A stretch of DNA of 45,227 nucleotides from Halobacteriovorax sp. (GTDB lineage: Bacteria > Bdellovibrionota > Bacteriovoracia > Bacteriovoracales > Bacteriovoracaceae): positions 1 to 45,227 of the forward strand of contig NZAF01000182.1 of assembly GCA_002686115.1 (NCBI GenBank), given 5' to 3'. The translations under genes and the position numbers were made by a program. Position 1 is the first letter of the stretch; every line of letters starts with the position of its first letter. This document shows, in pieces, positions 100 to 37,911 of the stretch. The notes under the pieces were generated by a model, which saw only the letters and a program-made list of their open reading frames with translations, was not told where the DNA came from and did no database searches.

Positions 100-1321
100 C
101 TTTAGAATAAAAACCAGTTAAAAATGGAAAACCTGTTAAAGCTAAAGTACCTATAAGAAATAAGGTATAAGTTAAAGGTAATAATTTAACTAAGCCACCC
201 ATTCTACGCATATCTTGCTCATCAGATAGCGAATGAATAACACAACCGGCACTTAAGAATAATAAAGCTTTAAAAAAAGCATGGTTTGCTAAGTGAAATA
301 AACTAACAGCATAACCAGATAAACCACATGAGAATACCATATAACCTAACTGACTACAAGTTGAATAAGCAATAACTTTTTTTAAATCATTTTGTACAGT
401 ACCTGCAGTAGCCGCAAAAAATGCAGTTAAAGCACCTACAAAAGTAATTACAGATAACATAGTAGGAGAATACTCGAATAAAGGAGAACACCTAATAATT
501 AAAAAAACACCCGCAGTTACCATAGTTGCTGCATGAATTAAAGCAGAAACCGGTGTAGGACCTTCCATAGCATCAGGTAACCAAGTATGTAAACCTAACT
601 GAGCTGATTTACCTACAGCACCAATAAAAAATAAAAAACAAATTAAAGTAATAACATTTACTTCCCAAAATAAGAAAAATACAGTCTTATTAAAAAAAAA
701 AGGAACTAAAGCAAAAACTGTAGAAAAATCAACAGATTGAAATACTAAAAAAACTAAAACAATGGCAATTAACACACCGAAGTCACCAATCTTATTTAAA
801 ATTAATGCTTTAATTGCTGATTTATTAGCTTGAATTCTAGTAGACCAAAAACCAATTAATAAATAAGAACATAGGCCTACACCTTCCCAACCTAAAAATA
901 ATTGAATGAAATTATCCGCAGTAACCAACATTAACATAAAAAAAGTAAAAAATGACAAATACGACATAAAACGTGATAAGTGTGGATCACCACTCATATA
1001 ACCATACGAGTACATATGAACTAAAGTTGACACAGTACCCACCACCACTATCATGGTAACAGCTAAAGGGTCTAAATAAAACCCTCAATTAACAGTAAAC
1101 ATTCCAGAATCTATTCATGTAAATAAATTAATATAACAAATATGAGATTTAAATATAACATAATAGTAAGCAATATAAGATAGTACATTACTAATTAGCA
1201 TTAAAGATACTGTAATAACAGCAGCACCTTTTCTACCAATTAAAAAGCTACCTAAACCAGCTACCATTGAACCTAATAAAGGTAATAAAATAATTAAAAT
1301 AAAACTTTGTATAAAAAACAT
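1..1321 (-). CDS. nad5: NADH dehydrogenase subunit 5, 5' part (continues across the origin into 44470-45128; 659 aa total)
   Basis: ATG at 1321. With TGA=Trp (1115, 1085) the frame gives [40 protein letters not shown] and [13 protein letters not shown]. 1321+659=1980 nt, in frame across the join. Confidence 0.97.
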
Positions 1322-1346
1322 AATATATAATAATTTTAGTTAATAA

Positions 1347-1814
1347 CTAACAATACTCATAGCTCCAATACCATTGGTTACCTAATACTTTAATAGTAAA
1401 TAAAGGTTGCCAAATTTGATCCATAGCATATAATAATGAAAAAGAAGGTACTGCAATAAAAATTAAAATAACTGCAGGAATAATAGTCCAAATTACCTCA
1501 ATTGTAGTATTATGAGTAAATAATTGTGGGAACCATACAAACTCCTCTTTTAATTGATACTCTTCAAACTCTTCTTCAAATTTTTCGTAAGCTACGATAT
1601 CTTCAGCAATAACAGAATCAATATAAGATTTTTCTTTACCCATATCAGTAAAGTAAGAATTACTTAATTGTAACTGTAAATCACGAATTGAAACTAAATT
1701 ACTTAAAATAGTACCTAAACGATTACTATAACAAGTAGTATTAGGATCATTTTTAAATTGATTATATAAATCTACATTATCTTTTGATACAAAATAACCT
1801 TTTTTTCAACCTCA
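1347..1814 (-). CDS. cox2: Cox2 second TM helix plus WYWSYEY segment. Frame is open from 1814 (first ATG 1643) and offset by -1 from the upstream giant ORF
   Basis: [34 protein letters not shown]...[16 protein letters not shown], then TAG stop. No CuA domain follows. Confidence 0.9.
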
Positions 1815-2332
1815 TTAAAAAAATACTCCACTTTATTATAATCATTTTTACCGATATATTTTAAAATATCTGTAATATTATCTGGTAATAACGAATTAGA
1901 ATGTAATTTAGAAGTAACTACTAAATGTTCTAACTCTTTATCATGGTACCACTTATTAAAATAAGTATTCTCCCAATAAATAAATAACATAGTTAAGTTA
2001 TAACATTTTTGTGCTAATAAATTAACTAAACCATTATCTTTATTTTTAGCAGAATAATCCACTAACTTAATAGTGAATGAATACCACATATTTACTAAAT
2101 CTAATAAGGTTTCACGAACCTCTTCGTGAACCCATTTTTGAATTCTAACTTTTAAGTTATAATTAGTACTGTTGAAATAATAAATAATATTAAATAATAC
2201 CCAACTTACAAAAACACTAACTAAAATTAAAAAAAAACATAAATCATGATGTAAATCAATAATACCTTCCATAATAGGAGAAGCAGGATCTTGAAACCCT
2301 AACTGCCATGCAGAAGGAGCATCATAAAACAT
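1772..2332 (-). CDS. cox2: Cox2 N-terminal segment (helix 1 plus insertion), embedded at the C-terminus of the giant ORF
   Basis: [46 protein letters not shown] is the canonical Cox2 N-terminus. In-frame ATG at 2330-2332. Confidence 0.92.
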
Positions 2333-5300
2333 GCTTTCATTTAAAACACTTAAATTTTCAAAATTATTTAATGAGCTTGCAACATTGTCCTCATAAAATA
2401 CCCAATAATCATAACATAATGGTTTATTGTTCATACGTTTATGTAAAATATTATTATATTCTGTAACATCAATACATGGAGCATCTATAACTACCGGACG
2501 AGCTTCTCTATGTGTAAATAACTCACCGTCACTACGCATATAACCATAGTAAACATCTTTAGTTACTAATAAAGTTCTTCTAAAAGTATCCATCCAACTA
2601 TAATCAACACGAGAAAGTAAACGGTTTTGTAAGTATAAGTACTCACGATAACTCGCAACACTACCATGTTCTGTCTCAATACCATGACCCCAAAACTCTT
2701 TAGCTAAGTCAGGTCTATGGATTTTAACTAAATCACCGATTACAGCATAGCCGTTCGGAAGAACGCCCCACGCTTTATAATCTGATTGATAAGTACCCTT
2801 AAAATTTGTAGGATTCCAAACACAATTATAATGATAAGTTTCCTTAAATAGAAACTGTAATAAAATACTATTTTTATAATCGATAAAATCTGAAGTATAA
2901 AATGAATCAACCGGTATTTTCCAAGCATGTCGTATACCTAAGTCCCTTTGAGGGATATCCCACTCAGGGTACCAAGTTTCATCAAAACCAAACATATCTT
3001 CTTCACCAAAACCACAAAAATAGCTATTATAATAAGTCTCAATAAAATTATCATCATTAAATATAGTATCATACTCTAAAATAGGGAACTGTAAACTATA
3101 ACGGCCATCTACACTATTAGAATAGCCCCATAATTTATTTGTTAGGCCTCAACGTAAAGCTTCTTTAATAGCATCATAGTGAGGGAAATGGCTTGTTAAA
3201 TAATAATTATTTTGAGCCCTTAAATTTCACTTAACACCATCTTCATAATGCTCCATACGTTTTTGAAATTCAAAATTACTTAATCTATGCACTAAACTAG
3301 TTGCAGAAATTAAATTAGATTCTGTACGATATACAAAATCCTTTAACCACTGTACACGCTCAGCAACAGTTAACTCATCTGCATTTAATTGTAAACTATG
3401 CCCTGGGAAATGGTATAAAATATACGCAAAAGTAGGACCATACATATCTAAATAAAAGTTATACACTTTTTGATTAAACGCCATAAAATCATAAGTATCT
3501 AATGCACGTGAGTGAAAATTTTGATAACCATGTGTAAATATACGTGGATAGGTATCTCGTGCACCAAATATTTTAACAGTTTGAAATCTAATATGATCAT
3601 CAAACATAGCATCAGAATCATTTTTTAATATGAAAACATCCTTATCACTTAATTGATTCCATATTTCAGGAGTTTTCCAACGACCACTACTTCTATGTGT
3701 AAACCAATAGCGGAACATAAAATCTGGTACTCTATATCTCCTTACAACCTCATCCATAGCATCAAGCATTTTATCATGCATATGAATTTTATTATAAACA
3801 GCTAGCGACTCTTTAGCATTACTTCTACCAAAAATATCATGAGAAAAGACCTGTCTAAAATACACTCTAATCTCTTTATAAGTATGAGTTCTACCACCAA
3901 GAGTAACCATACTATGGTATAATAACTCACGCATACGTTTTAAATAAAAATGTCGTTTCACAGGATCAGGTAAGTTTGTTTTTTCTAACATTAAAATATA
4001 ACCAGAAATATATTTATTCATACTCCATAGATCACGAATCCTTGTAGGAAAAGCATTTGATAAACCTTGGTAATCAAAAGTATCCCACATAGCATTCACA
4101 GTACTTTTTGGTACCTGATCTTGAGCTTCACCAATTAACCAAGGTAATTTACGATTATAATCACCACGAATACCTTTTGCTCTTATGTCACTGATACCTT
4201 GGAAATATGCAAATTCTTTAACACCTTTTAATTTTTTAAAAAAAGCATCAGAAAATAAATTAGGTGCAATAACATAACGTTCTGAAGGTAAAGGTAAAAA
4301 GTCACGTATAAAATTTGTAACTGGCTCAACAATACTCCTATATACATGCATAAAAAAAACATTATTTCACCAAAATTCATCAGAGCTACAAAACATATAG
4401 AAGTCAGTAAAATAAACAAAAAATTTTAAATATATCCTCTCTAAGTTAAAGTAACTAATACGACCTGTCTCAGGACTGTAATGAACAAAAATTGAAATAA
4501 CATATTTTAAACAATCATAAATAAGACGAATTAAAGTAATAACAAACAGATGTATACTACCAACACATGTATAAAAAAAGCCACCAATAAAAGGATAACC
4601 TGTATCGAAATAAGCAGCTATACAATTACTAAAATAAATAATATATTCCGCAGCCATAGCGAAAAACCAACTATAAACAGCACTACAGAACCCATAAAAT
4701 AATTTTAATAAATTATAAATTAACTTAACACTATAAATAAAGATACTTTCAGAAATGTATAAAAAGTTTACTCTAAATAAAACATAAAGTTCATAAACAG
4801 TAAAAACTAACTTACCAAATAATGAATAACAACCATTTAATATTAATTTAACATACGACCAAAAATCTTCAACAGTCCACATTAAAATTAAACCTAAAGA
4901 TTGAAATAAGTATTTAAATAATAAAGTTATAAATTTAATACTATTTAAAAATAAATTACTAATCTCTACTAGAGACCCGTTAAAAAGTAACCTAGCACTT
5001 TCTTTAAAATTTTCTTTTGGCTCATTTAAACCAAAAAATAACCCCTCTAAAGTACAGATTCTCTCCTCTAAACCTTGAAAGTATTTGACTATACTGAACC
5101 CAATTTTTACTTTAAGTAATAAAATATGCTCAGCAGTAATTTCACTAACAAAATCTACAATATAATCAAAGATAACTCCAATTCCTTCTCAAGTTTGACC
5201 TAAAGAAAACTTAATTATAGAAAAAGTTAATTTTAAATAATACCAAAGTAAATCTTTACTTACACCGGTAAAAAATAAAATATAATATGAAAATGGTAAA

Positions 5301-8300
5301 TTATAAATTTCAATAATATCAACATTGTACTTAATTCTAATTGGCACTACATACCACCTATTAAATACCCATGTAATATAATCAACAATTATAATTTGAT
5401 ACGCAGTTAAAAAATTAATAGCACTATCTTTAAAATCAAAAAGAAATTTAAAATAAACATAAGTAAATTCTTTATGAAAATCTGCATTAACAATTAACTT
5501 ATTATAAATTAAGTTAGGAGTACCTATAAAATGGATTTCTTGTTTCAACTCATGGATAGCTCTTAACATAATATAAAAGTAAAAACCTATAGGTGTTAAC
5601 CTTGTTAATAATGAATGAACCCACCAAAAAAGTTCTTCTATACCAGAATAAATAAAGTGAGCGAACCACTCTTTATAATAACCAATATAATATGAAGTAA
5701 TTTTTTTATAAAAATCAATTAACTCCTGACCTTTAAATGGGTATAAACCACCAACATATTGATCATTACGTTTTAACTCTGCTTTAGCTTCATACCTTAA
5801 ATTAGGAGTTAAAAACCAATGTTCTACACTTTCATATTGAATATAACGCTTAGTTATACGATTGAACCAATAAGGAATATAGTCAAATAGATAATATACT
5901 TTTATACTTTTCTCTTCTTTAATAGTATCAATATATTTAGCTTTATGTTCTCGTTGTTGTAAAGGTGTTTTATAAGAAAAAATCAATTGCCAAAAAGTAA
6001 TAAAACGACTATGCCAAAATACTGATTTATCGTTACCAACACCTTCCCAATATTTTAAATAAACCCTATTCCATAAACTTGTTTTTGCTCTCCAATTTTG
6101 CCACCTACCATCAGGTTTGAAATTAAAAGTTTTATTAATATAATTAAACCTATTCGCAGTATATAACCAATGGTCTTTCATAATATGTTGTAAATAACGC
6201 GGCTTCCAATAACTATGAGGAACGTAATAATACCAATAATAAAACATATCAATAAAAAATTGAACATCAAAATTACTAAAAGTTAAACCGTATGTTACAC
6301 GTAAATAAGTAGCAAAATAAGTGAATACTTCACTTAAATATGTAGGTAATTTAATTAATATATTAACAATACTACATAAAGTATTATAAACATAATCATA
6401 AGTTAAATAAATATACCTTGGTATCTTAAAGAAAGCACCAAAAATATATTGAAACATTACAGGAGCATAAAAAAAATATTTAACTGAATCTAACACTCAT
6501 ATAACATAAGTCTCACCAATCCATCGACGTAAATTAGGAGCAATCTCAGAAAACGAAATAAAGTCTACGAAATAATCATGTAAAGGTACCCAAATTTTCG
6601 CATGTATACGTAATTTATCAAAACCCCAAGAATAATTTCTAGTATCTATATGATTTTCATAAACAATTGTTTGTAAAATAACACTCTCATGCCACCTACC
6701 TATAGCACGTAATACATCAATATTACGCTGAGACTTATCTAACATATCTAACGAATCTAAAACACGCTCAGAAGGTGTTAAAGGATAATAATCTTCAAAT
6801 AAATTTACTTTACCTAACTCTTCATAAACATCAATAGAAGCTTGTGTAACTTTTGGATCTAAATTCCAACTATCAGTTACATATGCTTCTGGATTTTTTT
6901 CATAAGTATCTACAATATCTTTTGAGTATTTTTGTTTATTATTATACAGTTCAGAAACACTTAATTTTTCAACTAAACTCTCAGATTCTTTGACAGAAAG
7001 TTTCTTATTTTCATTAGGCAAATCACTTGTTTCACCTAAAGCCATATAATATATTGTTTTAAAATCATTAAATAAAGTACGTACATATACAGATATAGAG
7101 CTATGATAAAAAATATTTACATATAAACCATAACTATCCATAAATGAATCATAAAAAAAGTCTTTTGTTTTCACAAAATACCAATACATACATATAAAAG
7201 GGTAAAAAATACCTTCGACATAAAATTTACAACCTTCTACAAACATTAATTTTAATTGAACAAAAAAATTAAAAATATGTGCAACAAATATAGAAAATGA
7301 ATAACCAAACGATGAAATTACTCGAGAGAAACTTAAACCACCACTAAAACTATAATAGTCCCAATGCCAAATTACATTAGCTAAATATAGTAAAGTTACC
7401 CAAGCTTGACCAAATGTATGACGCCAAATATAAAAAATTGGGTAGTAAATAAACGAATGAACCCAATTAAGTCCATAATATGATAAAGTGCCTAAGTAAA
7501 ATACCTTATTATAAGCATTTAAAATTTCATGTACAAAGAAACCCTTGTAGTAGCTTAAATTTAAACTAAATACTTCTTGTATATAAGGCCAGTACACTTC
7601 ATTAAGATACCAACGGAAATATGCCCACTCTACCTCACGTGAAGGATCATCCTTAATAACAGCAACATAGTACTTGTAAAAGAAATACTCTAAAGTATGA
7701 TCACAAAACCTTTGTAACCTAAAATTAAAAAACTCTTGTAGACTTCCTAAATATTTAATTTGATTAAAAACAACAACCGCATTATCTAACCATAACCATG
7801 CTTTCCAAGTAATATCATCATACCAAATATTAAAAGTTTCACGAGCACCTACACGTAACTTCATAAAACTAAATTTCTTATTGAAAAAAGCTTCAATCTC
7901 TTGTGTCCAATCAGTAATCATTCTAGTTTCTGGGTAATAACGTAAATTGTTTTTATGTATTCACCAAAAACCAAACCTATGCGCCATAATTTCATGATTA
8001 TGTTCAAACATCTCTAATTTGTACAAGAAAAACCACTCTTTAAAAAATAAATACCAATAATTAATATTAAAACAATAATCTAAAAAATTCCAAATAGATT
8101 CAAAAGGTTTAATAAAAATTAAATAAAACCATAATTTTAATGTATAACCGAATACATTAAAAATAAAAAACCATAAAGAAATAATCTCTTCAAATAAGTA
8201 CTTAATAGAATAAGTAATACCTTCATATAAATTAACAACTGATTTAATAACAGCAACACTGATATTAATAACATAACCAGGTAAATTAAAAATTTCTTTA

Positions 8301-11263
8301 GGTATATTTAAAATAAAAATAAATAACTGATAAGTATAAACAGAAACTAAAACAGATAATCTAATAGGAATATCTAACAATGTATTTAAAATTTTATTTA
8401 CAAAAGCTGCTTCTACTAATACTGCTTTTAATAAAACTTTAGAAAGTCCATGCCTAAAAAAGTACCTATCAATAATTTCACTAATACTTGTAAATAATAA
8501 ATCAAAAGCGTAAATAACAGGGTTCCAAAGGTTAGATAACTCTGTTTGTTTTTCACTAAAATAACCTGCACGACCACTATTAACACCAGTATTTTTTAAA
8601 ATTGCAGGACGATACACACGATCTAAACTATCTGCTTCCCAACAATTATCTATAAAACCATAACCTTCTCGGCGAGCATTATAACTATAAATACGAGCAC
8701 GTTTTTCACTTAATTCTTTTAAATTTCTCATATTATCTTTTAACTCAGCATCACGGAAAACATATTCAGCTTTATTACCTAACCATTGGTAATACTTAAC
8801 AGCCCAAAAAGCACCAGTAACATACATCCAAGCATTACCATCATCATGATAACTTAGTTGCAGTCCTGTTTTATCAAGCCACCAATCATCTAACCTATTA
8901 CGTAAACTTCTCCACCTTAAACCTAAAAGAGTCTTACGCATTCTTCTGTGAGAAGTAATAATATCTAAAATAATAACAAATAATAACCAACTTAAACCAC
9001 CATATAAACCACCATAAGTAGTTACATGCCAAATATTTGTATGGAAAATACTAATCCAACTTAAATATAAACTTTCTAATTTATAATCTAATCTATCATC
9101 CCACATGACACTACCATAAGAAGGCCATGCTTTACACCAACCAATAGTATCTCTAGCTAGTAATTCTTTAGGTAAAGCTAAGTCACCAAAATTTAACTTA
9201 TCTGTAATTAAATCATCAACATAATAATTTAAAGTTTCAGAATACTCTTTAATCCAACGAACACGCCTAGCAAAATCAATAGAATTAGAATACTGATCAT
9301 AATATAAACCAGCGTCATAAACAATATGTTCACGTTCATTTACTAAATCTTGTTCTCCACGAACAATTTTTAAATACTCAGAACAACTTACAGTATCAAT
9401 CCAAAAACCATCTCTAAAAGCCATCATTGAAGCTTCACCGGTTTCATCATCGAAACTTTCAACCCAAGAATACACTCGGTCTTTCATTACACGAGTATAG
9501 TAAGGGTGATCATGGGTGTACCAAATTAACCTACTATACCAAGACTTCTGGTAAGTAAACATATTTTCTAAAGTATACCTAGTATCTAAACCTTCTGCAT
9601 AAGCTTTTAACTGTTCTTCAGTTAATAAACCAGTGTCGATACTTTCTTCTTCTAACCAAGTTTTAAAATCTTCCCAACTCCACTTGTAAGTTTTTTCTTT
9701 CCAAAACCAATCATGCATAAATTGGTTTATAAACGTAGTAGCTTGTCTATCAAACTCTGTAAAATTAATAGGTAAAGTAAAATCTTTACCAAAAATATTA
9801 ACTACAGTACGTTTACTTTCTATAACCCCATCCTTATCTAAAACATAAGGCTTAAAAATTTCATTAAAAGACCTTTCAGGATAAGATTTAGATTTTTTTA
9901 AATCATCATAACTGCGAGATTTAAGTGAATAATATTTATCCGATGGAATACGTACATGACGATTTTTTATCCAACGAAGGGTATTACGGATTCCTCCCCA
10001 TAATTCTTTCTTTTTATCATTGTTAAATAGCACACTATCGGCCACAGATTCTTTAAAATCACTGTAATCATCCGATATTTTCTCTGATCTGGCTAGAAGT
10101 CTAGCGGCCATACTAACCGAATCTACACTTAGGTTGTCTAACACGTCTAATGACTCTTTAAACTCTGTATTTAAATCTAATATTTGACGCTCTAACCAAA
10201 AAATTTCATGAATCTGTCTAACTAATTTCCAATTATATAAATCTTCAACATGATGAATCTCACCTGTTTCCATATTATAAAAATGTGACCATTTAAACTC
10301 AACGTCTTTATCTTTAACGAACCATTGCGCATTATAAAGTTGTTTTAATTTTTTTAATTCTTGTTCTCCTAGAACATTTAATACTTTTTGAATAAACTCT
10401 TCTTTTCTTAAAAAAAACTCAATGTTTTTTGATTTACCATACATAGTAGGATCATATGTGATTTCATCTATATTTACAGGGTCATAAAAAGCTTTTTTTG
10501 AATCAAAAGTAAGTATAACATTACCATCTTTATCAATTTCTTCAGCTCAACCACCAGCATACCAATCGCTACTATCTACGGGTAAATCCTCATAATCTTC
10601 TTCTACAACATAATCTTTACAAATATCATTTACTTTTCTTTTAATTTCGTTTGTTGATGTAAACTCTTCGAACTTTACAGGAAAAACAACTAACGGAAAT
10701 ATATAAGATAATTTTATCTTAAAATTATCAAAAATTTTAACTATTTTACTTCTTTTCTTTTCTTGTCTTACGACCATACCAATTGTGATTAATAATATAT
10801 TTACTAATATAATGAAACTATAAAAATCTAAATTTATGTTTACTACGCCTTCCATGTTATTCTCAAATAAGCCTACTAAAGGTAAGCTTAAATAATTAAA
10901 ATAATTCCATTTTTTAAAAATGAAAATTTTTTTTTTATTAAATTCAAATAAAAAATGCATATAAAATACAGACATACTGTCAATTAAAAATCTTAAATCT
11001 TTGTATACTTCAGAGCTAAAAATAAAAGTTAAATACTTTGAAGACCTTAACTCAAAAGATTCCATAGATTTTTTATTTACATGCGGAGATCTTAACAACC
11101 TCAACTTAATAGACTTCCTGGGTAACCTTAAGGTTCCAAATAAATCAACAAACATTTGTACTCTATTATAAATATAGGTTAAAAATGTAGATTGAAAAAA
11201 TTTTAAAGTAACACACCAAGATACAAAATAATTACTGTTTTTATATCTTAAGTATTTAGCCAT
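1772..11263 (-). CDS. Giant 3,163-aa ORF: Rps10 domain + about 2,870 aa unknown + Cox2 N-terminal segment
   Basis: Track ORFs 10547-11263, 7961-10444, 6497-7921, 5189-6496, 4367-4882, 3227-4351 and 1772-2995 share one frame. I translated every gap by hand: the only interruptions are TGA (10547, 7961, 6497, 5189, 4367, 3227, 3149), with no TAA/TAG until 1772. Confidence 0.9.
10960..11263 (-). CDS. rps10: Ribosomal protein S10 domain at the N-terminus of the giant ORF (no stop codon of its own; downstream boundary approximate)
   Basis: [27 protein letters not shown] matches the uS10 signature ([15 protein letters not shown]). Confidence 0.85.
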
Positions 11264-11871
11264 GGATTAGAAAATGTGAAGTATCTATACTCTTGTACTA
11301 AAGATACTGGTGCGTACTCAATCAATTGACGTGTGTCGTCATAAAAAACCTCAAAATACCCTGTTAAAGGGAAGTCTTTACGTAGAGGATGACCTTCAAA
11401 ACTATAGTCAGTAACTATACGTCGTAAATCAGGGTGACCTTCGAAAAAAATACCAAATAAATCCCATACTTCACGCTCGTACCATGAAGCTCCTTTATAA
11501 ACAGAAGAAATAGATGGTAAAACACTAAGCTCACCCACACTAACTAGGATGTTCATACGAGAATTATAAGCGATGCTTAATAATTGATAAATAACGTCAA
11601 AACGTTTATTTCTACCAGGATAATCTACAGCGATAATATCAGACAGAACTTTAAATTGAGTTCATGTATGAATTTTAATGAATTTAAAAAATTCTAATAA
11701 AAAATTTCTACTAATATTGACCTCGATTTCATTCGTTTCGATATAAATTTTACGAATAGTTCGAGGAATCATTAGTATAAGTAAATCCAAAAAAAATGAA
11801 TATACTTTATAACTAAGAGGCAAAACACTAATAGGAGCTTTACTATTTGTTAGCAATATATTATATTCCAT
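11248..11871 (-). CDS. nad9: NADH dehydrogenase subunit 9
   Basis: Two track ORFs joined by TGA at 11662. DIIAVDYP, WYEREVWDLFG, HPDLRRIVTDYSFEGHPLRKDFPL. Overlaps the giant ORF start by 16 nt. Confidence 0.96.
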
Positions 11872-12101
11872 TTCACGAGGAAATAGACTTTTTTATCAAT
11901 TACGAATAGAAGGAAGTTCAATTTTTTTTGTATTCAGTTGAAAAAAAATATAGATACTATCTGTTAAATAGCTTGCTTTTATTACTTGCCTTATAATAAA
12001 TAAAACATATGAAAATAAGCGAATCTATTAAAATTTAAGCTTTAGTTTTTACTACCTTACATAATATATAAAAAAGTAATAAAAAAAAAAGCTCCTCCCT
12101 G

Positions 12102-12413: not shown

Positions 12414-13847
12414 TTATTTTACTTGAATATCTTTAAATAATAATAATATATCTTTATTATCCTTTAAAGTTAAACCAGATTCATATAAAAAAGTACCGTA
12501 ATCAGAATTAACAGGTAAACCATCAAAAGCTAATAATAAACCGGCATAAAATAATAATAAACCAAAAGTAATAGGTAAAAATATTTTCCAACCAATACTC
12601 ATTAATTGGTTATAACGATATCTTGGTAATGTGGCACGAACCCATACATATGAAAAAGCAATAAAAGTTATTTTAATAAAAAACCAAAAACTTTCTACAA
12701 GTTCAAAATGTAAAATTACAGGAGGTAACCAACCACCAAAAAAGAAAATAACCATAATTGCAGCCATTAATAACATACTTGAATATTCACCTAAAAAGAA
12801 CATAGCGAAAATAATAGATGAGTACTCTGTATTATAACCTGAAACTAATTCCGCTTCTGCTTCTGGTAAATCAAAAGGAGCTCTGTTTGTTTCAGCTAAC
12901 ATAGATACAAAAAATATAATAACTAATGGAAATAATGGAAAACAATACCATACAGTATCTTGCTTAAATACAATTTCACGTAAATTATAAGTTCCGGAAA
13001 ATAAAGCAACAATTACCATAATGAAACCTAATGAAACTTCATATGAAATCATTTGCGCCGCAGAACGTAAGCCACCTAAAAAAGCATACTTAGAGTTACT
13101 TGACCAACCAGCTAATAAAACACCGTAAACACCTAATGATGATACGGCGAATACGTATAATGCAGATAACTTAGGATCCGCAAAAACAACATCTGATGAC
13201 CAAGGTATAACACACCAACCCATTAAACTCATTAAAAATGTGTATAATGGTGAACCTATAAAAATTTTAATACTAGCACGTCTTGGTACAATAATTTCTT
13301 TAGCTAATAACTTTAAACCATCAGCTAAAGGTTGTAAAAGACCCCAAAAACCTACAACATTAGGACCTTTACGACGTTGCATAGAAGCCATAGCTTTACG
13401 CTCTAATAAAGTAAAGTAAGCTACAGCAATTAATAAACCAATAATTAAAAAAAGACTAGATAAAACATAATGAACAATAAAACTAATTAAATAGTTAAAG
13501 TTATTTTCTTTTTCTAGTAACTCTAAAATAATATAATTGTTTAAAGACTCTTTATTAAATTCTAAATTTGTGATTAACTCTTGAAGCATAGATTTATCAA
13601 TTACTTTGGTAAAGTATAAAGAAATTAACTCTTCATACTCATATTTAAACATTTCTAAATCAATATAATCATAATTCTCAACTTGGATAACATTAATAAA
13701 ATTATCCTTTGAATAAGCTGAGCTAAAACTTAATAAATTTCTTTTCTTTTCTAAACTGTTAGATAACCAACCAATATATGAAAAACTACTAATAACAAAT
13801 AAAAAAATATAAATAATTTTTTTAATACTTAATTTTTGTAAAAACAT
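12414..13847 (-). CDS. nad1: NADH dehydrogenase subunit 1 with about 120-aa N-terminal extension
   Basis: [57 protein letters not shown]. Confidence 0.97.
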
Positions 13848-13870: not shown

Positions 13871-14806
13871 TTAGCTACCCCACCAATAAATAGATATAAA
13901 TAAGAATAACCAAACAACATCAACAAAATGCCAATACCAAGCAGCTGCTTCAAAACCAAAATGGTGAGTATTAGTAAAATGGTAATTTAAATGTCTCCAT
14001 AAACAAACTGCTAAAAATAAAGTACCAATAATTACATGGAAACCATGGAAACCAGTAGCTAAATAGAAAACAGAACCGTAAACAGTATCTTTAATAGTAA
14101 AAAACGCATGAGCATACTCATAAGCTTGGAAGAATGAAAAAATACCACCTAATAATACAGTTAATAATAAACCATCAGTAACTTCAGAACGATTACCTGC
14201 AACTAATGCATGATGAGCCCAAGTAATACTAGCACCCGAAGTTAATAAAATAACAGTATTTAATAATGGAATTTTCCAAGGGTCAAAAGGAATAATACCT
14301 TTAGGAGGCCACACGGCACCAATTTCAATATTAGGAGATAAACTCGAGTGAAAAAATGCCCAAAATAAACCAAAAAAGAACATTACTTCAGAAACAATAA
14401 ATAAGATCATACCGTAACGTAAACCACGTTGTACCATTTTAGTATGATGACCTTCATAAGTACCTTCTACGATTACATCCCAAAACCAAGCACCCATAAT
14501 TACAATAAAAAATAAGCTCATAATTTTGTGAATAAAAATAGTAGCTGAACAAGATACAAATGACTCTAAAAACATAGTAATTAAACTACTTTTACAAATA
14601 AATGCTAAAAAAGCAGAATCACTTGACGCAGATAGTTGACCTGCTAACTCTAATTTACCATGATTCATACCATAAGTTACGAAAACTAAAATGAAATATA
14701 GTAAATTAAATGAAAATAACATAGGCCAACCACTAGGTTTTACTAGATGAAAAGGGTGTTTTAATTTTAAATTAGTCCATAATTGATTTCTTTGTATAAT
14801 ATCCAT
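13871..14806 (-). CDS. cox3: Cytochrome c oxidase subunit 3
   Basis: [43 protein letters not shown]. Confidence 0.98.
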
Positions 14807-14826
14807 AAACTATAAATAATTATATA

Positions 14827-16536
<1,710 letters not shown>

Positions 16537-16548
16537 TTAAAAATAAAA

Positions 16549-18237
16549 TTATTGCTCAATGAAACTAGCTAATAATACATCACGTTTATCTTTGTTTAAG
16601 AAAATTGCTAAAATATTAGTTAAGAAAGTATCTAATTGATCTTCAATCTCAGGAGTTAATGATTTTTCAGCAGATAAATTTAAAATAATTTTTTCAGCGA
16701 TTGCACTTTCACAACATACTAAAATAACTTTTTGGAAATTCTCTACTAAAGAAACATCTAAACGATCTAAGTAACCACGCATACCAGCATAAATTAATAC
16801 TACTTGATATTCTAAAGGTAATGGATCGTACTGACCTTGTTTTAATAATTCAATTAAACGTACACCTCTATTTAAAACACCTTGAGTAGTAGCATCTAAA
16901 TCAGAACCAAACTGAGCAAAAGCTTCTACTTCACGGAATTGAGCTAACTCTAATTTTAAAGAACCTGCAATCATTTTCATAGCTTTTACTTGAGCAGCAG
17001 AACCTACACGACTTACAGATAAACCTACATTAATAGCTGGACGAATACCTCTATAAAATAACTCAGACTCTAAGAAAATTTGACCATCAGTAATAGAAAT
17101 TACATTAGTAGGAATATAAGCAGAAACGTCACCCGCTTGAGTTTCAATAATTGGTAATGCAGTTAATGAACCACCACCTAATTTATCATTCATTTTCGCA
17201 GCACGCTCTAATAAACGAGAGTGTAAATAGAAAACGTCACCAGGATAAGCTTCACGGCCAGGTGGTCTTCTTAATAATAACGACATTTGACGATAAGCTA
17301 CTGCTTGTTTACTTAAATCATCATAAACTACTAAAGCATGCATACCGTTATCTCTAAACCACTCACCTAAACTACAACCAGAGTAAGGAGCTAAAAATTG
17401 TAATGGAGCTGAATCTGATGCAGTTGATGATACAATTGCAGTATAGTTAAAAGCTTTCATACTATTTAACGCAGTTACAATTTGAGCAACAGTAGAACGT
17501 TTTTGACCTACGGCAACATAAATACAGTATAATTTTTGAGAACCAGTACCTTTTTCTTCAATATCTAATTGATTTACAAACGATTGATTAATAATAGTGT
17601 CAATAGTAATCGCAGTTTTACCAGTTTGTCTATCACCAATAACTAACTCACGTTGACCACGACCTACTGGTACCATACTATCTACAGCTTTTAAACCAGT
17701 TTGCATAGGTTCACTAACCGATTGTCTTGGCATAATACCTGGAGCTTTTACTTCAACACGACGTTTTTCTAAAGTAGAAGCATCTAATACACGACCATCT
17801 AATGGGTTACCTAAAGCATCTACAACACGACCTAATAAAGAACGACCTACAGAAATATCTACAATTTTTTCAGTACCTAATACATAGTTACCTTGTTGTA
17901 CTTCACGATCATTACCAAAAACTACAACACCAACAATATCTTTCTCTAAATTTAACGCCATACCTTTAATCTCACTTGGAAAAAATACAACTAACTCACC
18001 AGCACGAACAGCCTCTAAACCACGTACACGAGCAATACCATCACCAACAGAAACTACAACACCAATATCATTAAAGTTTTCGCTATCAGATAACTCTAAA
18101 TCTAAGAAACTACCAGACTTGTTAGAAACAAAGGCTACTTCATTTTTTAACATAACATTACTTAACACATTTTTTTTAACACCTAAAAAAGAAGATACAT
18201 TTAATAAACCTGAATTTGAATTAACAACTTTTAACAT
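16549..18237 (-). CDS. atp1: ATP synthase F1 alpha subunit (ATG 18237; track start TTG 18243)
   Basis: VGDGIARV, Walker [33 protein letters not shown]. Confidence 0.98.
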
Positions 18238-18289
18238 AAACAAAAATAAACATAAGTATATTTTTTAAAAATTTCAAAAACATAAAAGC

Positions 18290-21608: not shown

Positions 21609-23666
21609 TTAGTTTTTTACAATAAGACCACTACTTACGTAGAAGTCAAAGTCATTATAAAAAGCTGTACTTGCATAAGTATTGCCTGTATGTAATAAGA
21701 AAGGAGAATTTACTTGAAAGTCATACCACTCTTGATTTAAAAATGGATGAACTAACGAAGAAACAAAAGAATTAAACATATCACTTTCATAGAATACTGG
21801 TATATAATAAATTAAACTTAAATTTAAAATAATAATAACAGTGATCCAAAAATTAATTATGTTTTTTTGCCAATAAGTACCCAATAACGAATTTAATACA
21901 GGTTTATCATATAAACTACCTTTTCTATATGAAAATGAAGTTACAGCAATTAACCTAATGTAGTTATAACCTGTTAATAATGAAAATAATATAACTAATA
22001 AAAAAAAGAAAAAGCCTACAAACTGGTACGCAGTCTCAATATTAAAAGATAAATTAATACCTACAACAGAGTAAAATAACTCAATTAAATAATTTTTAAA
22101 CACGTAAAGCTTAATAATAAATCCAGGAAATGGAGGTAAACCTGCCATTGAAAATAAGAAAAAAACTAATATTAACTGAATAGTTAAAGGTAATTTCTGT
22201 AAATCTGAAAAATATTTGACTAAGCGATAATTAAAAATAAACTTACCTCCACGATTTTGGACAATTTGTGTAGGTGAAATAATAATAACAATTAAAAAAC
22301 TTAATAAAGTAAAAATATAAACACCAGTATATAAAATAGAAGATTTAAAACCATCAAAAGTCATTGAAGATAAACCTAATAATATAAAACCAGTATGTAC
22401 AATAGAACTATAAGCTAAGAAACGTTTTACTTCTACTTGCGCTAATGCTAACAAGCTACCAACAAAAATTGAAAAAATAGCCGATAAGTAAATAACGATA
22501 GTAAAAATTTGAGTAAATTGCATATAAAAAAAAGTATGCATTACTAATCTAAAAAATACAGCAAAAAAACTAATTCTTACTATAGTCGCAAAAAAAGTAG
22601 TTACCCACATAGGTGCACCCTGATAAACATCACCAATCCAAAAGTGATAAGGCACTGAACCTAATTTCATTAAAAATACGATTATAATAGCTAAAGACGA
22701 CACTAATAAAATCATATCTAAACTACCTAAAGAGTTTGGCTTATAATCTAGAACAAGCTGAGAAATAACTTCACGAATAGTAAAAAGATCCATAGAGCCA
22801 GTTACAAAATAAATAGCCGCTGCAGAAATACCAAAAATACAAGAAAACACTGCACTTGTTAAAAAATATTTTAAACCTGATTCAATAGATAACCTATTAG
22901 TGGTATGTAAACCTGCTAAAATATATAAACATAAAGTCGCACCTTCTAAAGATACAAAAAACGATAATAAATTATAAGATTGCACTAACCAAAATAAAAA
23001 AAATAATGTAATAGGTAACATTATTAAAAAATTTTTAGTAAATATAGCACGATCTGTAAGCTCTAAAGTTTTTACTTTAATATAAGATGCTCTATAAGTG
23101 TTGTCATCACCATACGAAAGAAATGTGAATATTAAAAATAACATAACGCAAACGCTTAAAAAAGCCTGTACACCAAAACTAAAATGATCAAATATAACCA
23201 TATTTGATGAATCAGTTAAAGAACAAGCATAAGTATAAGGATCTTCCGAACCATAACCCCTTGGGATTGAGGTAACAAAATATTTACTATCATAAAACTG
23301 ACCTGAGCCTACTTGTTTTAATTTCCAAATATTCGCTACAGAAGCAAATAAAGAAAATGCAGCAGTAGCCACAATACCCGCGTTTGCCCAAAAAATATCT
23401 CTCGAAGTATTCCAAACCATTAAACGAGTTTTTTCTTTATGTGTACGAAATGAAAATAATAATAAAATAGCAAAAAAACAAAACAACCAAGCATTCGCAC
23501 CAAAACTAACAAGTGCATTATAATAGTTATGTAAACTATTTGAAAAGAAATGAAGAGTATCCCCTGCATAACCTTCAAGAGTACCTGGAACTAAAACTAG
23601 ATGAAATGGTTTATTACATAAATTTCTAAATAAACCTTTTACATTTTTTATTTCCGATAACCTCAT
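21609..23666 (-). CDS. nad2: NADH dehydrogenase subunit 2 with long N-terminal extension (685 aa)
   Basis: SIESGLKYF, KLGSVPYHFWIGDVYQGAP, KRFLAYSSIVHTG, SMAGLPPFPGF. Confidence 0.95.
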   Translation of the reverse strand: MRLSEIKNVKGLFRNLCNKPFHLVLVPGTLEGYAGDTLHFFSNSLHNYYNALVSFGANAWLFCFFAILLLFSFRTHKEKTRLMVWNTSRDIFWANAGIVATAAFSLFASVANIWKLKQVGSGQFYDSKYFVTSIPRGYGSEDPYTYACSLTDSSNMVIFDHFSFGVQAFLSVCVMLFLIFTFLSYGDDNTYRASYIKVKTLELTDRAIFTKNFLIMLPITLFFLFWLVQSYNLLSFFVSLEGATLCLYILAGLHTTNRLSIESGLKYFLTSAVFSCIFGISAAAIYFVTGSMDLFTIREVISQLVLDYKPNSLGSLDMILLVSSLAIIIVFLMKLGSVPYHFWIGDVYQGAPMWVTTFFATIVRISFFAVFFRLVMHTFFYMQFTQIFTIVIYLSAIFSIFVGSLLALAQVEVKRFLAYSSIVHTGFILLGLSSMTFDGFKSSILYTGVYIFTLLSFLIVIIISPTQIVQNRGGKFIFNYRLVKYFSDLQKLPLTIQLILVFFLFSMAGLPPFPGFIIKLYVFKNYLIELFYSVVGINLSFNIETAYQFVGFFFFLLVILFSLLTGYNYIRLIAVTSFSYRKGSLYDKPVLNSLLGTYWQKNIINFWITVIIILNLSLIYYIPVFYESDMFNSFVSSLVHPFLNQEWYDFQVNSPFLLHTGNTYASTAFYNDFDFYVSSGLIVKN

Positions 23667-26051: not shown

Positions 26052-27221
26052 TTAAATATCTTTCAAAGAAATAATTTTATCTTTAGTCCTACTTAATTGA
26101 TCAGAATGATATTGTTTTTTTACACCTGAACGTTCTCTAAAAGTTAATAAAATAGGAGCAACGATACTCACTAAAAGAACTAAACCTGACATAATAAAAG
26201 CAAATGAATATTTAGTATAAAAAACCATACCTAAATCCTCTAAATCATTTAATACAGGTCTTAAGTTAAAGTAACTTTCTAAAGAACTATCACGAACAAC
26301 CTCATTTAATCTCCAATAATATAAATTAGTTAGTAAACTAGAATTATAACTTTTAAAGAAAATAAAAAATAAACTTAAAAATAAAAAAAATAAAAAAAAA
26401 TTAAATAAGCCGGATTTTTTTAACTTATACTCAGGTATTTTTTCAAATTTTAACATCATAATAACAAATAAAAATAAAACTGCAATAGCACCTACATAAA
26501 TAATAACATATAATAAAGCAAATAACTCTAAACCATAAGCTAATAAAACAATACTTGAATATACATAAGTTGCAATTAAAAATAATAAAGAATTAATTGG
26601 ATTACGAGATAAAATTATACCAAAAGCATTTAATAAAAAAAAGCTATAAACAAAAAAAGAAACAACAGAATCAAAAGTTAAATTATAACTTTCAATACTA
26701 TAAAAATATACACTTTTTACAAAAAAAACAACATTAGTTTCTTCAGAAAAAAATGAAAAAAACATATTATTAACTATATTCACAAATGAATTATACTCGC
26801 CAATAATATAAGGGCAACCTATTTCCTCAAAAAATTGAGTTAATACTAAACTCATTCTTGAGATATATGATATATTAAACTCATTAAAAAACGATAAGTA
26901 TAAATAAAAATATACCATAATTGAAATTAAAATTAAACTACTTACTATATTTTCAACAATATGAATATAATTAAATAAGCTGTAATTTTTAAAAATAAAA
27001 TTACCAACACTTATTAAAATATATAAACCAATAAAAAATACAATAAATAGAATATTCAAACTAAATGATAAATCAAAAACTAAAACATTAATTAAACTTA
27101 ATAAAACTACAAAAATAGAATAAAAGTTTCGGAAATCATTTTTAGTTTTTAAAACATCACCTTTTAATGAAAATTCAAAATAATCAAAATTATTATTATT
27201 ATTAATATTATTATTTAACAT
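26052..27221 (-). CDS. nad6: NADH dehydrogenase subunit 6 with about 185-aa hydrophobic N-terminal extension
   Basis: SRNPINSLLFLI, YVGAIAVLFLFVIMML, LGMVFYTKY in the C-terminal half. Confidence 0.93.
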   Translation of the reverse strand: MLNNNINNNNNFDYFEFSLKGDVLKTKNDFRNFYSIFVVLLSLINVLVFDLSFSLNILFIVFFIGLYILISVGNFIFKNYSLFNYIHIVENIVSSLILISIMVYFYLYLSFFNEFNISYISRMSLVLTQFFEEIGCPYIIGEYNSFVNIVNNMFFSFFSEETNVVFFVKSVYFYSIESYNLTFDSVVSFFVYSFFLLNAFGIILSRNPINSLLFLIATYVYSSIVLLAYGLELFALLYVIIYVGAIAVLFLFVIMMLKFEKIPEYKLKKSGLFNFFLFFLFLSLFFIFFKSYNSSLLTNLYYWRLNEVVRDSSLESYFNLRPVLNDLEDLGMVFYTKYSFAFIMSGLVLLVSIVAPILLTFRERSGVKKQYHSDQLSRTKDKIISLKDI

Positions 27222-27240: not shown

Positions 27241-27810
27241 TTAATTTACTTTTAAAGTAGAAAAAGTATCAAATGGAGATTTACACCAAGCATAAAAAGC
27301 CTCTAAATCTACAGCTTCAACAACAATAGGCATAAAAGCATGATTTACACCACAAATTTCAGAACATTGGCCATAAAAAAAACCCTCACGTTTTAAGAAT
27401 AAAGCAGTTTGATTTAAACGACCAGGACAAGCATCTAATTTAATACCTAACGAAGGCACGGTCCAACTATGAATTACGTCTAAAGATGTAATTAAAAAAC
27501 GAATCCAAGAACCATAAGGTAAAATAACATTATTATCAGTAGCTAATAACCTATAAAAACCGTTGCTTAAATCCTCAGTTTTTACCATATTACTAGTAAA
27601 TTGATAATTTTTAAAATAAAACACATTAGTATTATAAAAATCAACATTATAAAAACTTACTAATAAAAACATAACTAAACTGTTTAAACTGAATAAAACT
27701 AAAGCAGGTACAATTAAAATAGGAATTAAAAAATACTGACCTAGATGATAAGGTTTATTAACTTTAAATAAAAAACTAAAAATTGAAGAATTAATAAAAT
27801 AGTTTAACAA
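27241..27810 (-). CDS. cox2: Cox2 C-terminal CuA domain as a separate gene (cox2b); start uncertain (TTG 27810, ATG 27672 or 27588)
   Basis: [50 protein letters not shown] with all CuA ligands. In-frame TAG upstream at 27829-27831. Confidence 0.95.
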
Positions 27811-27998: not shown

Positions 27999-28071
27999 CA
28001 AGTGGAGAGAGACTCGAACTCTCATCAATTGATTTTGGAGACCAACACTCTACCAATTAAGCTATCCACTC
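27999..28071 (-). tRNA. trnW: tRNA-Trp(CCA)
   Basis: TTGGT-CTCCAAA-ATCAA anticodon arm, acceptor GAGTGGA/TCCACTT. Confidence 0.94.
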
Positions 28072-33026: not shown

Positions 33027-33559
33027 TTACTTAATTAATGTAAAGTTTTTTTTATAATTTAATAAATAAAAGAATTTAAATACAGCTAACCTATTTAACA
33101 CGAAGTATACAAAAAACTTTTGTAATAACAACCTATAAATAGATTCCATAGAACCTTTATAATTTTTAAGAGTATCTTTAACTAAATTAAAACGCTTAGC
33201 ATCTACAAATAAATTATTATTAATAATCATACCTAAAAAAATTAACTTTGACTTATTATTATCAATAAATTTAACTAAGTCATAGAAATTAACTTCATTA
33301 GTTTGACCATAACTTAAAAAAGATTGACTTTTTAATAAATAACGTAACTTTAAGTTAGAATTATTTAAATAAATCGATGAAAATACACCACGTTTTAACC
33401 AAATAGTTGAAAGATTAAACTCCTCTAACTTATACATAAAGCTTTTTAAAGCAGATTCATTATCTCTATAATTCCAAAAAAAAAAAAAAAATTATTCTTT
33501 AGAATTATTTTATTTAATGCAACAGAATATCTTTGTTTTCTATAAAGCCAAAAATTCAT
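33027..33559 (-). CDS. rpl10: Probable ribosomal protein L10, frameshifted in a 16-nt homopolymer (33476-33491)
   Basis: ATG 33559 gives MNFWLYRKQRYSVALNKIILKNNFFFFF. The -1 frame continues FWNYRDNESALKSFMYKL...LLKSQSFLSYG...LVKFIDNNKSKLIFLGMIINN. Size and motif spacing resemble uL10 (similarity judged by eye). Confidence 0.55.
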
Positions 33560-37214: not shown

Positions 37215-37911
37215 GTTTATTATAAATAATTATTTAAAAGAATTAAAAATATATATATTTTACATATTAATTTCTATAACCCTGACGACTAGTTTAGCAT
37301 ACACATATAATTACGAAGCTTTTTATTTAATTAGTAAGCCAATTACAATAAATACAGACCAATTTAGTTTTATATTTACAAATATATTTGAAGCATTTAA
37401 AACATACTTAACATTAAGCCTTATTATTGGATTTCATTTTAATATACCATTTATAGCTTGGATATTATGGAAATTTTTAATCAAAGGATTACATAAATAT
37501 GAAAATACAATACTACTAAAAGCATCTCTAATTATAACCTTAACCTTAATTTTAATAAATTTACTATTTTACAACATAATAATGCCAATAATTGTAACAT
37601 TTTTACTACAATTTGAAAACCTAGTAGACTTTAACCCTGTAAATATACAAATACAACTAAAGCTAGAAGAGTACTTTAAAATTTATATACAATTAATATA
37701 TATATTTAACTTAACTTTTTTAATACCATTTTTATCGCTATTTATTAATAACATGAAATGAATATATTATAAAAAATATATTTATGTAATATTATTAATA
37801 ATAATAGCACTAATAACACCTCCTGATATTATTAGTTTAATACTATTTTTTTTACCTACATTTTTAACTTTAGAAATTTCACACTTAATCAAAAGAATAA
37901 ATTATAAATAA
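37213..37911 (+). CDS. tatC: Twin-arginine translocase subunit TatC (232 aa)
   Basis: ELKIYIFY, FIFTNIFEAF, WKFLIKGLHKYE. Read-through of TGA 37759 adds IIIALITPPDIIS...LE. Stop TAA 37909-37911. Confidence 0.92.

What the first reader, a model, noticed from the sequence alone, without database searches (positions are those of the whole stretch)
1772..11263. Hidden 9.5-kb mitochondrial polyprotein: Rps10 + about 2,870 aa unknown + Cox2 N-terminus in one reading frame
Seen: seven track ORFs share a frame and are separated only by TGA. There is no TAA/TAG over 3,163 codons of very AT-rich DNA, which is not plausible by chance. Residues 1 to about 100 carry the uS10 signature, and the canonical Cox2 N-terminus starts at residue 2978. 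Known: mitochondrial fusions exist (the cox1/cox2 ORF of Acanthamoeba and Dictyostelium), and yeast Cox2 is matured by Imp1 cleavage just before an Asp. Inference: a ribosomal protein, a giant unknown membrane-associated protein and a complex IV subunit may be made as one precursor and cut apart (e.g. at MFY/DAPSAW). Alternatively they could be separated by RNA processing or internal initiation (ATG 2332). I know of no described rps10-giant ORF-cox2 arrangement.
Basis: partly seen in the sequence, partly recalled or inferred. Interest (0 to 1): 0.92.

Follow-up and report, generated by a model that had tools for sequence, protein, structure and literature searches.

The report
Giant three-part mitochondrial polyprotein gene
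The mitochondrial DNA of an unidentified marine eukaryote, and of several distant relatives, joins a ribosomal protein (Rps10), about 2,850 residues of unknown protein and half of a respiratory-chain subunit (Cox2a) in one reading frame of about 3,300 codons, which is likely made as one precursor and then likely cut apart.

Summary
The frame is real, on the minus strand, and longer than reported. The window is a circular mitogenome (TGA=Trp) binned into a bacterial MAG. Its stop at 1772 comes from one missing A in a homopolymer: 5 of 5 runs with a listed contig bridging the site carry the base, and the frame runs on to 1347 (3,305 aa). It encodes Rps10, about 2,850 unknown residues, then Cox2a with a ~220-aa loop insertion; cox2b lies 16 kb away. 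The arrangement is conserved. A close relative has an intact 3,309-aa frame (middle 78% identical, dN/dS 0.25, no stop where ~148 are expected under drift). Two distant lineages have 3,375- and 3,267-aa proteins with the same order although the middle is only 23-25% identical. The proposed internal ATG (2332) is not conserved (Met in 8 of 16 junction variants); the mature-type Asp is kept in all 16. Best reading: one precursor, cut proteolytically (0.55). Cleavage, transcript form, host lineage and the middle's function are untested; the junction lacks the yeast Imp1 Asn. I found no description in ten literature searches.

The parts
1347..11263 (-). Full Rps10-giant-Cox2a reading frame (3,305 aa once the missing A is counted); ATG overlaps the last 16 nt of nad9, TAG lies 25 nt before nad5
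10964..11263 (-). Rps10 (uS10m) domain, aa 1 to about 100; aligned core aa 13-85
   Evidence: dN/dS 0.07 against L003
10769..10825 (-). Strongest predicted TM helix of the middle (aa 147-165), followed by basic residues; a matching helix follows Rps10 in all 4 full-length sequences
   Evidence: hydropathy scan only
2324..10963 (-). Giant unknown middle, about 2,850 aa, rich in F/Y/W/I/L, 7 hydrophobic segments by scan; no Pfam, NCBIfam or PDB match above threshold
3263..3526 (-). Best-conserved block of the middle (aa about 2580-2667), found in 11 aligned sequences with 19 invariant columns
2390..2437 (-). Conserved R-[ML]-x2-[KR]-P-x-C-[YW]-x-Y-W motif, its Arg 30-40 residues before the Cox2 Asp; candidate leader or first cut site
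   Evidence: 16 distinct segments, picked by this pattern
2321..2332 (-). Met2978 (ATG 2332, not conserved) to Asp2981 (conserved; aligns with residue 1 of mature yeast Cox2 chains)
2183..2251 (-). Cox2a TM helix 1
1517..2182 (-). About 220-aa insertion between Cox2 TM1 and TM2 (matrix side by standard Cox2 topology, inferred); 94-98% identical to L003
1800..1806 (-). A7 run where other assemblies have A8; the missing base makes the false stop at 1772-1774
1347..1516 (-). Cox2a TM helix 2 and first strand of the CuA domain, ending at [13 protein letters not shown]
27241..27810 (-). cox2b: separate gene for the rest of the CuA domain (Pfam COX2 17-120, complementary to 2-16 in Cox2a), with about 60 extra N-terminal residues

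Best explanation
One 9.9-kb mitochondrial reading frame encodes Rps10, a lineage-specific protein of about 2,850 residues and Cox2a in that order, and it is likely translated as a single ~400-kDa precursor that proteases would cut into its parts. Shown: the continuous frame, the identity of both ends, purifying selection on the middle, and the same order in distant relatives. Inferred: (1) ribosomes starting at the Rps10 ATG meet no stop before the end of Cox2a; (2) a matrix protease would release Rps10 somewhere before the hydrophobic helix at aa 147-165, whose basic C-terminal flank predicts an N-out anchor for the giant protein; (3) Cox2a would be freed at Tyr|Asp2981 by an inner-membrane-peptidase-type enzyme with a specificity different from yeast Imp1, possibly after a first matrix-side cut near the conserved Arg2943, which would leave a ~37-residue leader instead of a 700-residue soluble domain to export; (4) Cox2a would pair with the separately encoded Cox2b; (5) the giant part is most likely an inner-membrane-bound helical scaffold tied to complex IV, since its conservation is highest next to Cox2a. 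The fusion would fix a 1:1:1 output.
For: Frame intact in L003 (3,309 aa), P0264/P0265 (3,375 aa, two assemblies, 4 differences) and P0273 (3,267 aa), each with uS10 and Cox2 hits at the two ends. The middle is 23-25% identical between window/L003 and P0265/P0273 but colinear: 6 of 7 segments score z 10.7-34.3 over shuffles, and the motifs keep their order in P0278 and P0276 too. Window vs L003: middle dN/dS 0.25, 871 nonsynonymous changes, 0 stops against about 148 expected under drift; aa 111-200 P(no stop)=0.01; the four DNA indels between aa 136 and 171 are all multiples of 3. Met before DAP in only 8 of 16 junction variants, Asp in 16 of 16. SSU rRNA 3' end shows no CCUCC, no tRNA or Rfam RNA lies inside the frame, and 0 of 13 differences in RNA-library contigs makes a stop. 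Mature yeast Cox2 chains begin at the aligned Asp. Precedent: the Acanthamoeba cox1/2 ORF gives two products from a polycistronic mRNA (as reported in PMC5626475, passages).
Against: No protein data at all. The residue before Asp2981 is Tyr (15) or Phe (1), not the Asn of the Imp1 motif (PMC8835746). No conserved cut motif was found after Rps10, and aa 100-480 are not significantly alike between L003 and P0265 (z 0.5). A Met in the R-M motif is kept in 15 of 16 variants and could be an internal start; the Val replacing Met2978 could be GTG (no DNA in hand). The two short junction stretches alone do not reject drift (P(no stop) 0.08 and 0.07). Searches used fused queries, so unfused relatives may have been missed; P0238-P0241 (308-330 aa) start at or just before Cox2a and may be TGA-cut gene calls or free genes. 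RNA contigs cannot show transcript ends, and no silent-stretch control was laid.
Confidence: 0.55

Rival explanations
1. One precursor, but only Rps10 is cut off: the giant part (or its C-terminal ~400-700 aa) stays on Cox2a as a huge built-in complex IV extension.
For: Conservation peaks next to Cox2a (44% at aa 2601-2700 and 50% at 2901-3000 vs P0265, about 20-30% elsewhere); giant-Cox2a linkage holds in the most distant homologues P0278 and P0276; the yeast Imp1 Asn is absent; an uncut 1,892-aa Cox2 was detected in Scrobicularia plana (PMC9174706, passages).
Against: The Asp that starts mature yeast Cox2 is kept in 16 of 16 variants while the spacing to the upstream motif varies from 30 to 40 residues; about 730 residues without a hydrophobic segment (aa 2249-2980) would have to cross the inner membrane.
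Confidence: 0.2
2. One precursor, but only Cox2a is cut off: Rps10 keeps the giant part as a very large extension of the small ribosomal subunit, perhaps anchoring it to the membrane.
For: No conserved cut motif seen after Rps10; a 612-aa uS10 chain exists in PDB (7pkq_j); nine unknown ciliate mitochondrial ORFs turned out to be mitoribosomal proteins (PMC7326499, passages).
Against: A single strong hydrophobic helix after Rps10 has its basic flank on the C-terminal side (K/R 0-2 before, 4-8 after, in 4 of 4), which would put Rps10 on the wrong side unless a second weak helix precedes it; the stretch next to Rps10 is the least conserved (z 0.5).
Confidence: 0.08
3. Three genes that happen to share a frame and are expressed separately, by RNA cutting with tails that make stops, or by internal initiation (Met137; Met2944 or Met2978).
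For: Met near aa 137 in window, L003 and P0173; Met in the R-M motif in 15 of 16 variants; many genes here carry in-frame N-terminal extensions, so starts are loosely defined.
Against: Frame kept without a stop at both junctions in 4 full-length lineages down to 23% middle identity, with length changes in both linkers; internal starts would not stop upstream ribosomes from reading through; RNA-library contigs bridge both junctions without joints or stop-making changes (weak, DNA may be present); every neighbouring gene has its own TAA/TAG.
Confidence: 0.15
4. The frame is an assembly artefact or a mobile-element ORF (intron, plasmid polymerase) inserted between rps10 and cox2.
For: The window does contain one assembly-type error (1799); dS in the middle is about twice that of other genes (0.56 vs 0.26).
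Against: 20 runs of 14 studies hold half or more of its words; independent contigs tile it; codon use matches the other genes; no mobile-element family or intron match; dS is also high in nad9 (0.63) and rps10 (1.09).
Confidence: 0.02

Closest known systems
cox1/2 continuous ORF of Acanthamoeba castellanii, Dictyostelium, Polysphondylium, Paracercomonas and some Pleosporales; cox1/cox3 of Gefionella (PMC5626475, PMC12086354, passages)
   Same: Mitochondrion-encoded genes in one frame without a stop, with Cox2 as the downstream partner whose N-terminus must be freed.
   Different: Three parts, not two; partners are a ribosomal protein and an unknown 2,850-aa protein rather than another complex IV core subunit; only the Cox2a half is fused.
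Split cox2a/cox2b of Chlorophyceae, apicomplexans, dinoflagellates, Perkinsus and Campsomeris/Dielis wasps (PMC5664110, passages)
   Same: Break at the start of the CuA domain; the two pieces are complementary by Pfam positions. Both halves mitochondrial, as in the wasps.
   Different: The halves lie 16 kb apart and Cox2a is the tail of a 3,300-aa frame with a ~220-aa insertion between its helices. The review's table lists no case like it.
Yeast pre-Cox2 processed by Imp1 (PMC8835746, PMC8847149, passages)
   Same: The Asp that begins mature yeast Cox2 aligns with Asp2981.
   Different: The upstream part is about 2,980 residues instead of a short leader; P1 is Tyr/Phe, not Asn.
Composite precursors such as yeast Atp25, cut by MPP (PMC5063612, passages)
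   Same: Unrelated functions in one precursor, often with a ribosome-related partner.
   Different: Those are nucleus-encoded and cut on import; this is made inside the mitochondrion.
Enlarged Cox2 of Scrobicularia plana (1,892 aa, uncut; PMC9174706, passages) and large unknown ORFs of ancyromonads (Orf1249; PMC12086354, passages)
   Same: Very long mitochondrial frames under purifying selection with no known homologue.
   Different: The bivalve protein has an internal insertion in one gene; the ancyromonad ORFs are under half the size and not shown to be fused to known genes. Sequence homology to either was not tested directly.

Membership tests
Ribosomal protein uS10 (PF00338) | Profile match to uS10, including the conserved hairpin motif | tested here: met
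   Pfam 21.9 bits vs cut-off 21.2 for the window, 21.0 and 20.4 for L003 and P0265, just under; 4-sequence profile vs PDB best E 1.3e-9, 51 of 52 hits uS10; below NCBIfam whole-protein cut-offs
Ribosomal protein uS10 (PF00338) | Incorporation in the small subunit | not testable with these tools
   no other rps10 in the mitogenome (only a 107-nt weak self-match in rps2); a nuclear copy cannot be excluded
Split Cox2 (Cox2a + Cox2b) | Cox2a holds both TM helices and ends at the start of the CuA domain; Cox2b holds the rest | tested here: met
   COX2_TM in two stretches and COX2 2-16 in P0265; COX2 17-120 in 27810->27241; 8 of 9 aligned Cox2a end at QWYWSYEYC, the ninth is a fragment
Split Cox2 (Cox2a + Cox2b) | Heterodimer in complex IV | not tested
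   no complex prediction was run; halves of a split gene would pass by likeness to solved structures
Mitochondrion-encoded fused ORF of the Acanthamoeba cox1/2 kind | Continuous frame across gene borders, conserved in relatives | tested here: met
Mitochondrion-encoded fused ORF of the Acanthamoeba cox1/2 kind | One mRNA covers the frame | tested here: inconclusive
   RNA-library contigs bridge both junctions (X4 8191-12089, X20 10770-11796; X16 813-4852, X17 2039-4452, X20 2220-2849) but none spans the frame, contigs show no ends, and DNA may be present
Mitochondrion-encoded fused ORF of the Acanthamoeba cox1/2 kind | Separate mature products | not testable with these tools
   needs proteomics or blots
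Yeast Imp1 substrate | [I/V][H/D/F/M]N|[D/E] at the cut (PMC8835746) | tested here: not met
   Asp after the site in 16 of 16, but Tyr/Phe instead of Asn before it in 16 of 16
Intron- or plasmid-borne mitochondrial ORF (RT/maturase, homing endonuclease, polymerase) | Profile match to such domains or a flanking intron RNA | tested here: inconclusive
   no such match in Pfam, NCBIfam, PDB profiles or Rfam; absence at these thresholds does not exclude a very diverged domain

The most novel reading that the evidence does not exclude
An unrecognised lineage of marine eukaryotes makes a ~400-kDa, virus-style polyprotein inside its mitochondria: one translation event yields a mitoribosomal protein, a new ~330-kDa membrane scaffold family and half of Cox2, coupling ribosome and complex IV supply 1:1, with the giant part serving as a mitochondrion-encoded complex IV subunit or assembly platform. 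It would be the longest mitochondrion-encoded translation product I know of (recall plus the searches named).
Probability: 0.5. Interest if true: 0.92.

Novelty: new variant of a known kind. Interest (0 to 1): 0.82.

Why it matters
Mitochondrial genomes are thought to keep a shrinking subset of ancestral genes, each translated on its own; fused frames are rare and the described ones join two complex IV subunits. Here 22% of a compact 45-kb mitogenome is one frame that joins the translation and respiration machineries through a protein family with no known relatives, kept in frame while the middle drifted to about 24% identity. If cut, it implies a dedicated processing route for mitochondrion-made precursors, with a peptidase specificity unlike yeast Imp1 and a way to handle a very long leader on Cox2; if uncut, a ribosome or complex IV with a 330-kDa built-in extension. 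It adds a further cox2a/cox2b split with both halves mitochondrial. It is testable: the organism is common (20 runs, 14 studies, including biofilm, oyster and rhizosphere samples). Practically, table-11 gene callers shatter the frame, and the truncated form from this contig is in NCBI nr (P0246).

Tried and rejected
Three-piece cox2 (my first reading): rejected, the 1643->1347 ORF is the tail of the giant frame. RNA insertion editing at 1799: rejected, DNA runs carry the base too. Stop-making editing: 0 of 13 listed RNA-contig differences in the frame; 9 of 13 also occur in DNA runs, and 8 further rows of that table were not shown. L004 (genome contigs): chance match to a GreA-like bacterial gene. 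Viral contigs: nothing with two alignments. Structure: AlphaFold of L003 aa 2330-3038 gave pLDDT 32 (its alignment placed P0265 poorly); the conserved 131-aa block gave pLDDT 52, pTM 0.27, no Foldseek match and only generic helices, best Z 5.2: uninformative, not evidence of a new fold. No ESM Atlas result is in hand for the middle, so look-alikes by language-model features remain open. No internal repeats in L003 or P0265 and no paralogue in the window or MAG. P0284/P0285 (unsplit Cox2 with 300-400 extra N-terminal residues) do not match a profile of the middle: treated as unrelated. Host lineage not identified: nearest named Nad7 proteins are 81-82% identical green-algal entries, no closer than many unnamed ones; cluster look-ups gave no eukaryote names; ancyromonads differ in gene content (nad11, nad8, sdh2; PMC12086354). 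One weak nucleotide-transporter match in the MAG does not show that the bacterium is a symbiont. A recalled link of ciliate Ymf77 to the mitoribosome could not be confirmed and is not used. Earlier scan findings: 4 look-ups, nothing.
Full report
What the window is. The 45,227 bases are a complete circular mitochondrial genome (99-base terminal repeat) with rnl, rns, 20 tRNAs and, by my reading of the translations, nad1-7, nad4L, nad9, cob, cox1, cox3, atp1/6/8/9, tatC and about 13 ribosomal protein genes (nad1, nad2, nad6, atp8, tatC checked by profile, the other names recalled). It is contig C182 of a 2.5-Mb prokaryote MAG and its most deviant contig by tetranucleotides (1 of 140), so it is mis-binned. 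TGA is read as Trp in about 11% of Trp codons of the other genes and 6% in the giant frame. The stretch is held by 20 runs of 14 studies from marine, seawater, biofilm, oyster and rhizosphere samples, three of them flagged as a possible source. I could not name the host.

The observation. The frame lies on the minus strand, 11263->1772, 3,163 codons, 7 TGA, no TAA/TAG; the other five frames have 171-295 stops each and codon use matches the other genes. Chance is about 1e-92. The N-terminus is uS10 and Cox2 begins at Met2978/Asp2981.

A correction. The stop at 1772 is an artefact of one missing A in the run at 1800-1806. Three RNA-library runs and two DNA runs carry the extra base: 5 of 8 runs laid, 5 of 5 with a listed contig bridging the site. 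X1 and X17 have no cover; X9 has depth there without the insertion but its listed long contigs end either side. The piece 1799->1347 is open, another assembly encodes exactly that continuation (P0243; the truncated P0246 comes from this contig), and the relative L003 has eight A. The real product is 3,305 aa and ends at QWYWSYEYC. It thus contains a whole Cox2a: TM1, an insertion of about 220 residues, TM2 and the first strand of the CuA domain. The remainder is a separate gene, cox2b, at 27810->27241; Pfam positions 2-16 and 17-120 are complementary, which matches the position described for known splits (PMC5664110, passages).

Conservation. L003, a metagenome contig with the same gene order, has an intact 3,309-aa frame. 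Twelve neighbouring genes are 97% identical overall (dN/dS 0.05), Rps10 87% (0.07), Cox2a 94-100%, the middle 78% (dN/dS 0.25). All 8 indels in the protein alignment are whole codons; at DNA level six are clean multiples of three and two regions show small gaps that sum to multiples of three. Neutral drift to the observed four-fold divergence would give about 148 stops in the middle; for aa 111-200 the chance of none is 0.01, for the two short junction stretches only 0.08 and 0.07. Of 23 DNA-contig differences I classified (long contigs only; short partial contigs left out) 14 are silent, 9 change a residue, 0 make a stop. Distant relatives carry the same architecture as single proteins without TGA: P0264/P0265 (3,375 aa, contigs of 34 and 45 kb) and P0273 (3,267 aa), with uS10 and Cox2 hits at the ends. 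Their middles are 23-25% identical to ours and 34% to each other, Rps10 34-37%, Cox2a 57-76%; 6 of 7 segments beat local shuffles (z 10.7-34.3), the segment aa 100-480 does not. P0278 (2,858 aa) and P0276 (1,393 aa) join the giant part to Cox2a as well; their motifs map to our aa 1350 and 2300 onward, so they are cut at the N-terminus and say nothing on Rps10. For these proteins I hold no DNA. Fragments on shared contig lengths (P0277 with P0239, P0279 with P0240) fit a TGA-broken fused frame but do not prove it.

The junctions. Among 16 distinct variants picked by the upstream pattern, the Met three residues before the Asp is present in 8 (Val 5, Thr, Leu, Ser 1 each); the Asp is in all 16, preceded by Tyr (15) or Phe (1); a motif R-[ML]-x2-[KR]-P-x-C-[YW]-x-Y-W begins 30-40 residues upstream, with Met in 15 of 16. 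Similarity continues upstream of that motif without a break. Mature yeast Cox2 chains in PDB start at the aligned Asp. The Imp1 motif has Asn before the cut (PMC8835746, passages), so this is not a textbook Imp1 site. After Rps10, all 4 full-length sequences have a hydrophobic helix with 0-2 basic residues before and 4-8 after. No tRNA or Rfam RNA lies in the frame, the SSU rRNA 3' end shows no anti-Shine-Dalgarno, and RNA-library contigs bridge both junctions with no stop-making change among 13 listed differences; contigs cannot show ends and no silent control was laid, so this is weak.

Mechanism. Shown: frame, ends, selection, conserved order. Inferred: translation from the Rps10 ATG, which overlaps nad9 by 16 nt, runs to the end of Cox2a (about 400 kDa). 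Rps10 works in the matrix and the Cox2 N-terminus faces the intermembrane space (established knowledge, recalled), so cuts are the simplest way to place both. I favour release of Rps10 by a matrix protease before aa 147 and of Cox2a at Tyr|Asp2981 by an IMP-type peptidase, perhaps after a first cut near Arg2943 that spares export of about 730 hydrophilic residues (0.55). The middle is most likely a membrane-bound helical scaffold linked to complex IV, because conservation is highest next to Cox2a; nothing identifies it (folds uninformative). Rivals: giant stays on Cox2a (0.2; precedent of an uncut 1,892-aa Cox2, PMC9174706), giant stays on Rps10 (0.08), separate expression by RNA processing or internal starts (0.15), artefact or mobile element (0.02).

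Comparison and novelty. It works like the cox1/2 frame of Acanthamoeba and Dictyostelium (as reported in PMC5626475; the primary papers by Lonergan and Gray and by Pellizzari et al. were not read) and like composite precursors such as Atp25 (PMC5063612), and its Cox2 is a member of the split-Cox2 kind by sequence. It differs in having three parts, a ribosomal and a respiratory partner, and a 2,850-aa protein of a new family. Ten full-text searches listed no paper whose title, abstract start or the passages I read describe an rps10-giant-cox2a frame; the library lacks most subscription journals, and supplements of preprints were closed, so an annotation in a mitogenome paper could be missed. 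What I saw of papers: passages of PMC12086354, PMC5664110, PMC7194472, PMC5626475, PMC8835746, PMC8847149, PMC9174706, PMC5063612; passages, section 7 and an empty supplement search of PMC7326499; listings only for the rest. Verdict: real, longer than reported, conserved across deep divergence; new variant of a known kind with a new protein family inside; interest 0.82.

Noticed in passing
window 12414-13847, 26052-27221, 21609-23666, 13871-14806, 14827-16491, 16549-18243 (all minus): In-frame N-terminal extensions on many respiratory genes: Pfam starts at aa 132 in nad1, 199 in nad6, 230 in nad2. The nad1 extension is kept in L003 (97% identity over 451 aa); cox1 N-termini vary among relatives.
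   Followed up: partly
window 27999-28071 and tRNA set: The only trnW has anticodon CCA although TGA=Trp is used; no tRNA genes found for Gly, Arg, Thr or Val, implying tRNA import or anticodon modification.
   Followed up: no
whole window: No nad11, rpl2, rps13, rps19, atp4 or sdh gene recognised in the ORF list, while atp1, nad7, nad9, rps10 and tatC are present (names partly recalled). SSU rRNA 3' end lacks CCUCC.
   Followed up: partly
window 33027-33437 (minus): 136-aa ORF with no Pfam or NCBIfam match; looks rpl10-like to me (recalled, untested).
   Followed up: partly
window 37006-37911 (plus): tatC, the only protein gene on the plus strand (TIGR00945 E 1e-26, below cut-off). A Tat route could matter for exporting a large folded domain.
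   Followed up: partly
window 10934-11871 vs L003: Synonymous divergence is much higher in nad9, rps10 and the giant middle (dS 0.63, 1.09, 0.56) than in most other genes (0.10-0.33): local mutation-rate rise or recombination between lineages.
   Followed up: no
proteins P0284, P0285, P0423, P0424: An unrelated group has unsplit Cox2 with at least 300-400 extra N-terminal residues that do not match the giant middle: a second case of a very long Cox2 leader.
   Followed up: partly
G000: The mitogenome is mis-binned as the longest contig of a 34% GC bacterial MAG; contig C185 (8.9 kb, 27.6% GC) carries ParA-like and methylase-like ORFs (recalled names) and may be a plasmid; one weak TLC transporter match on C43.
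   Followed up: partly
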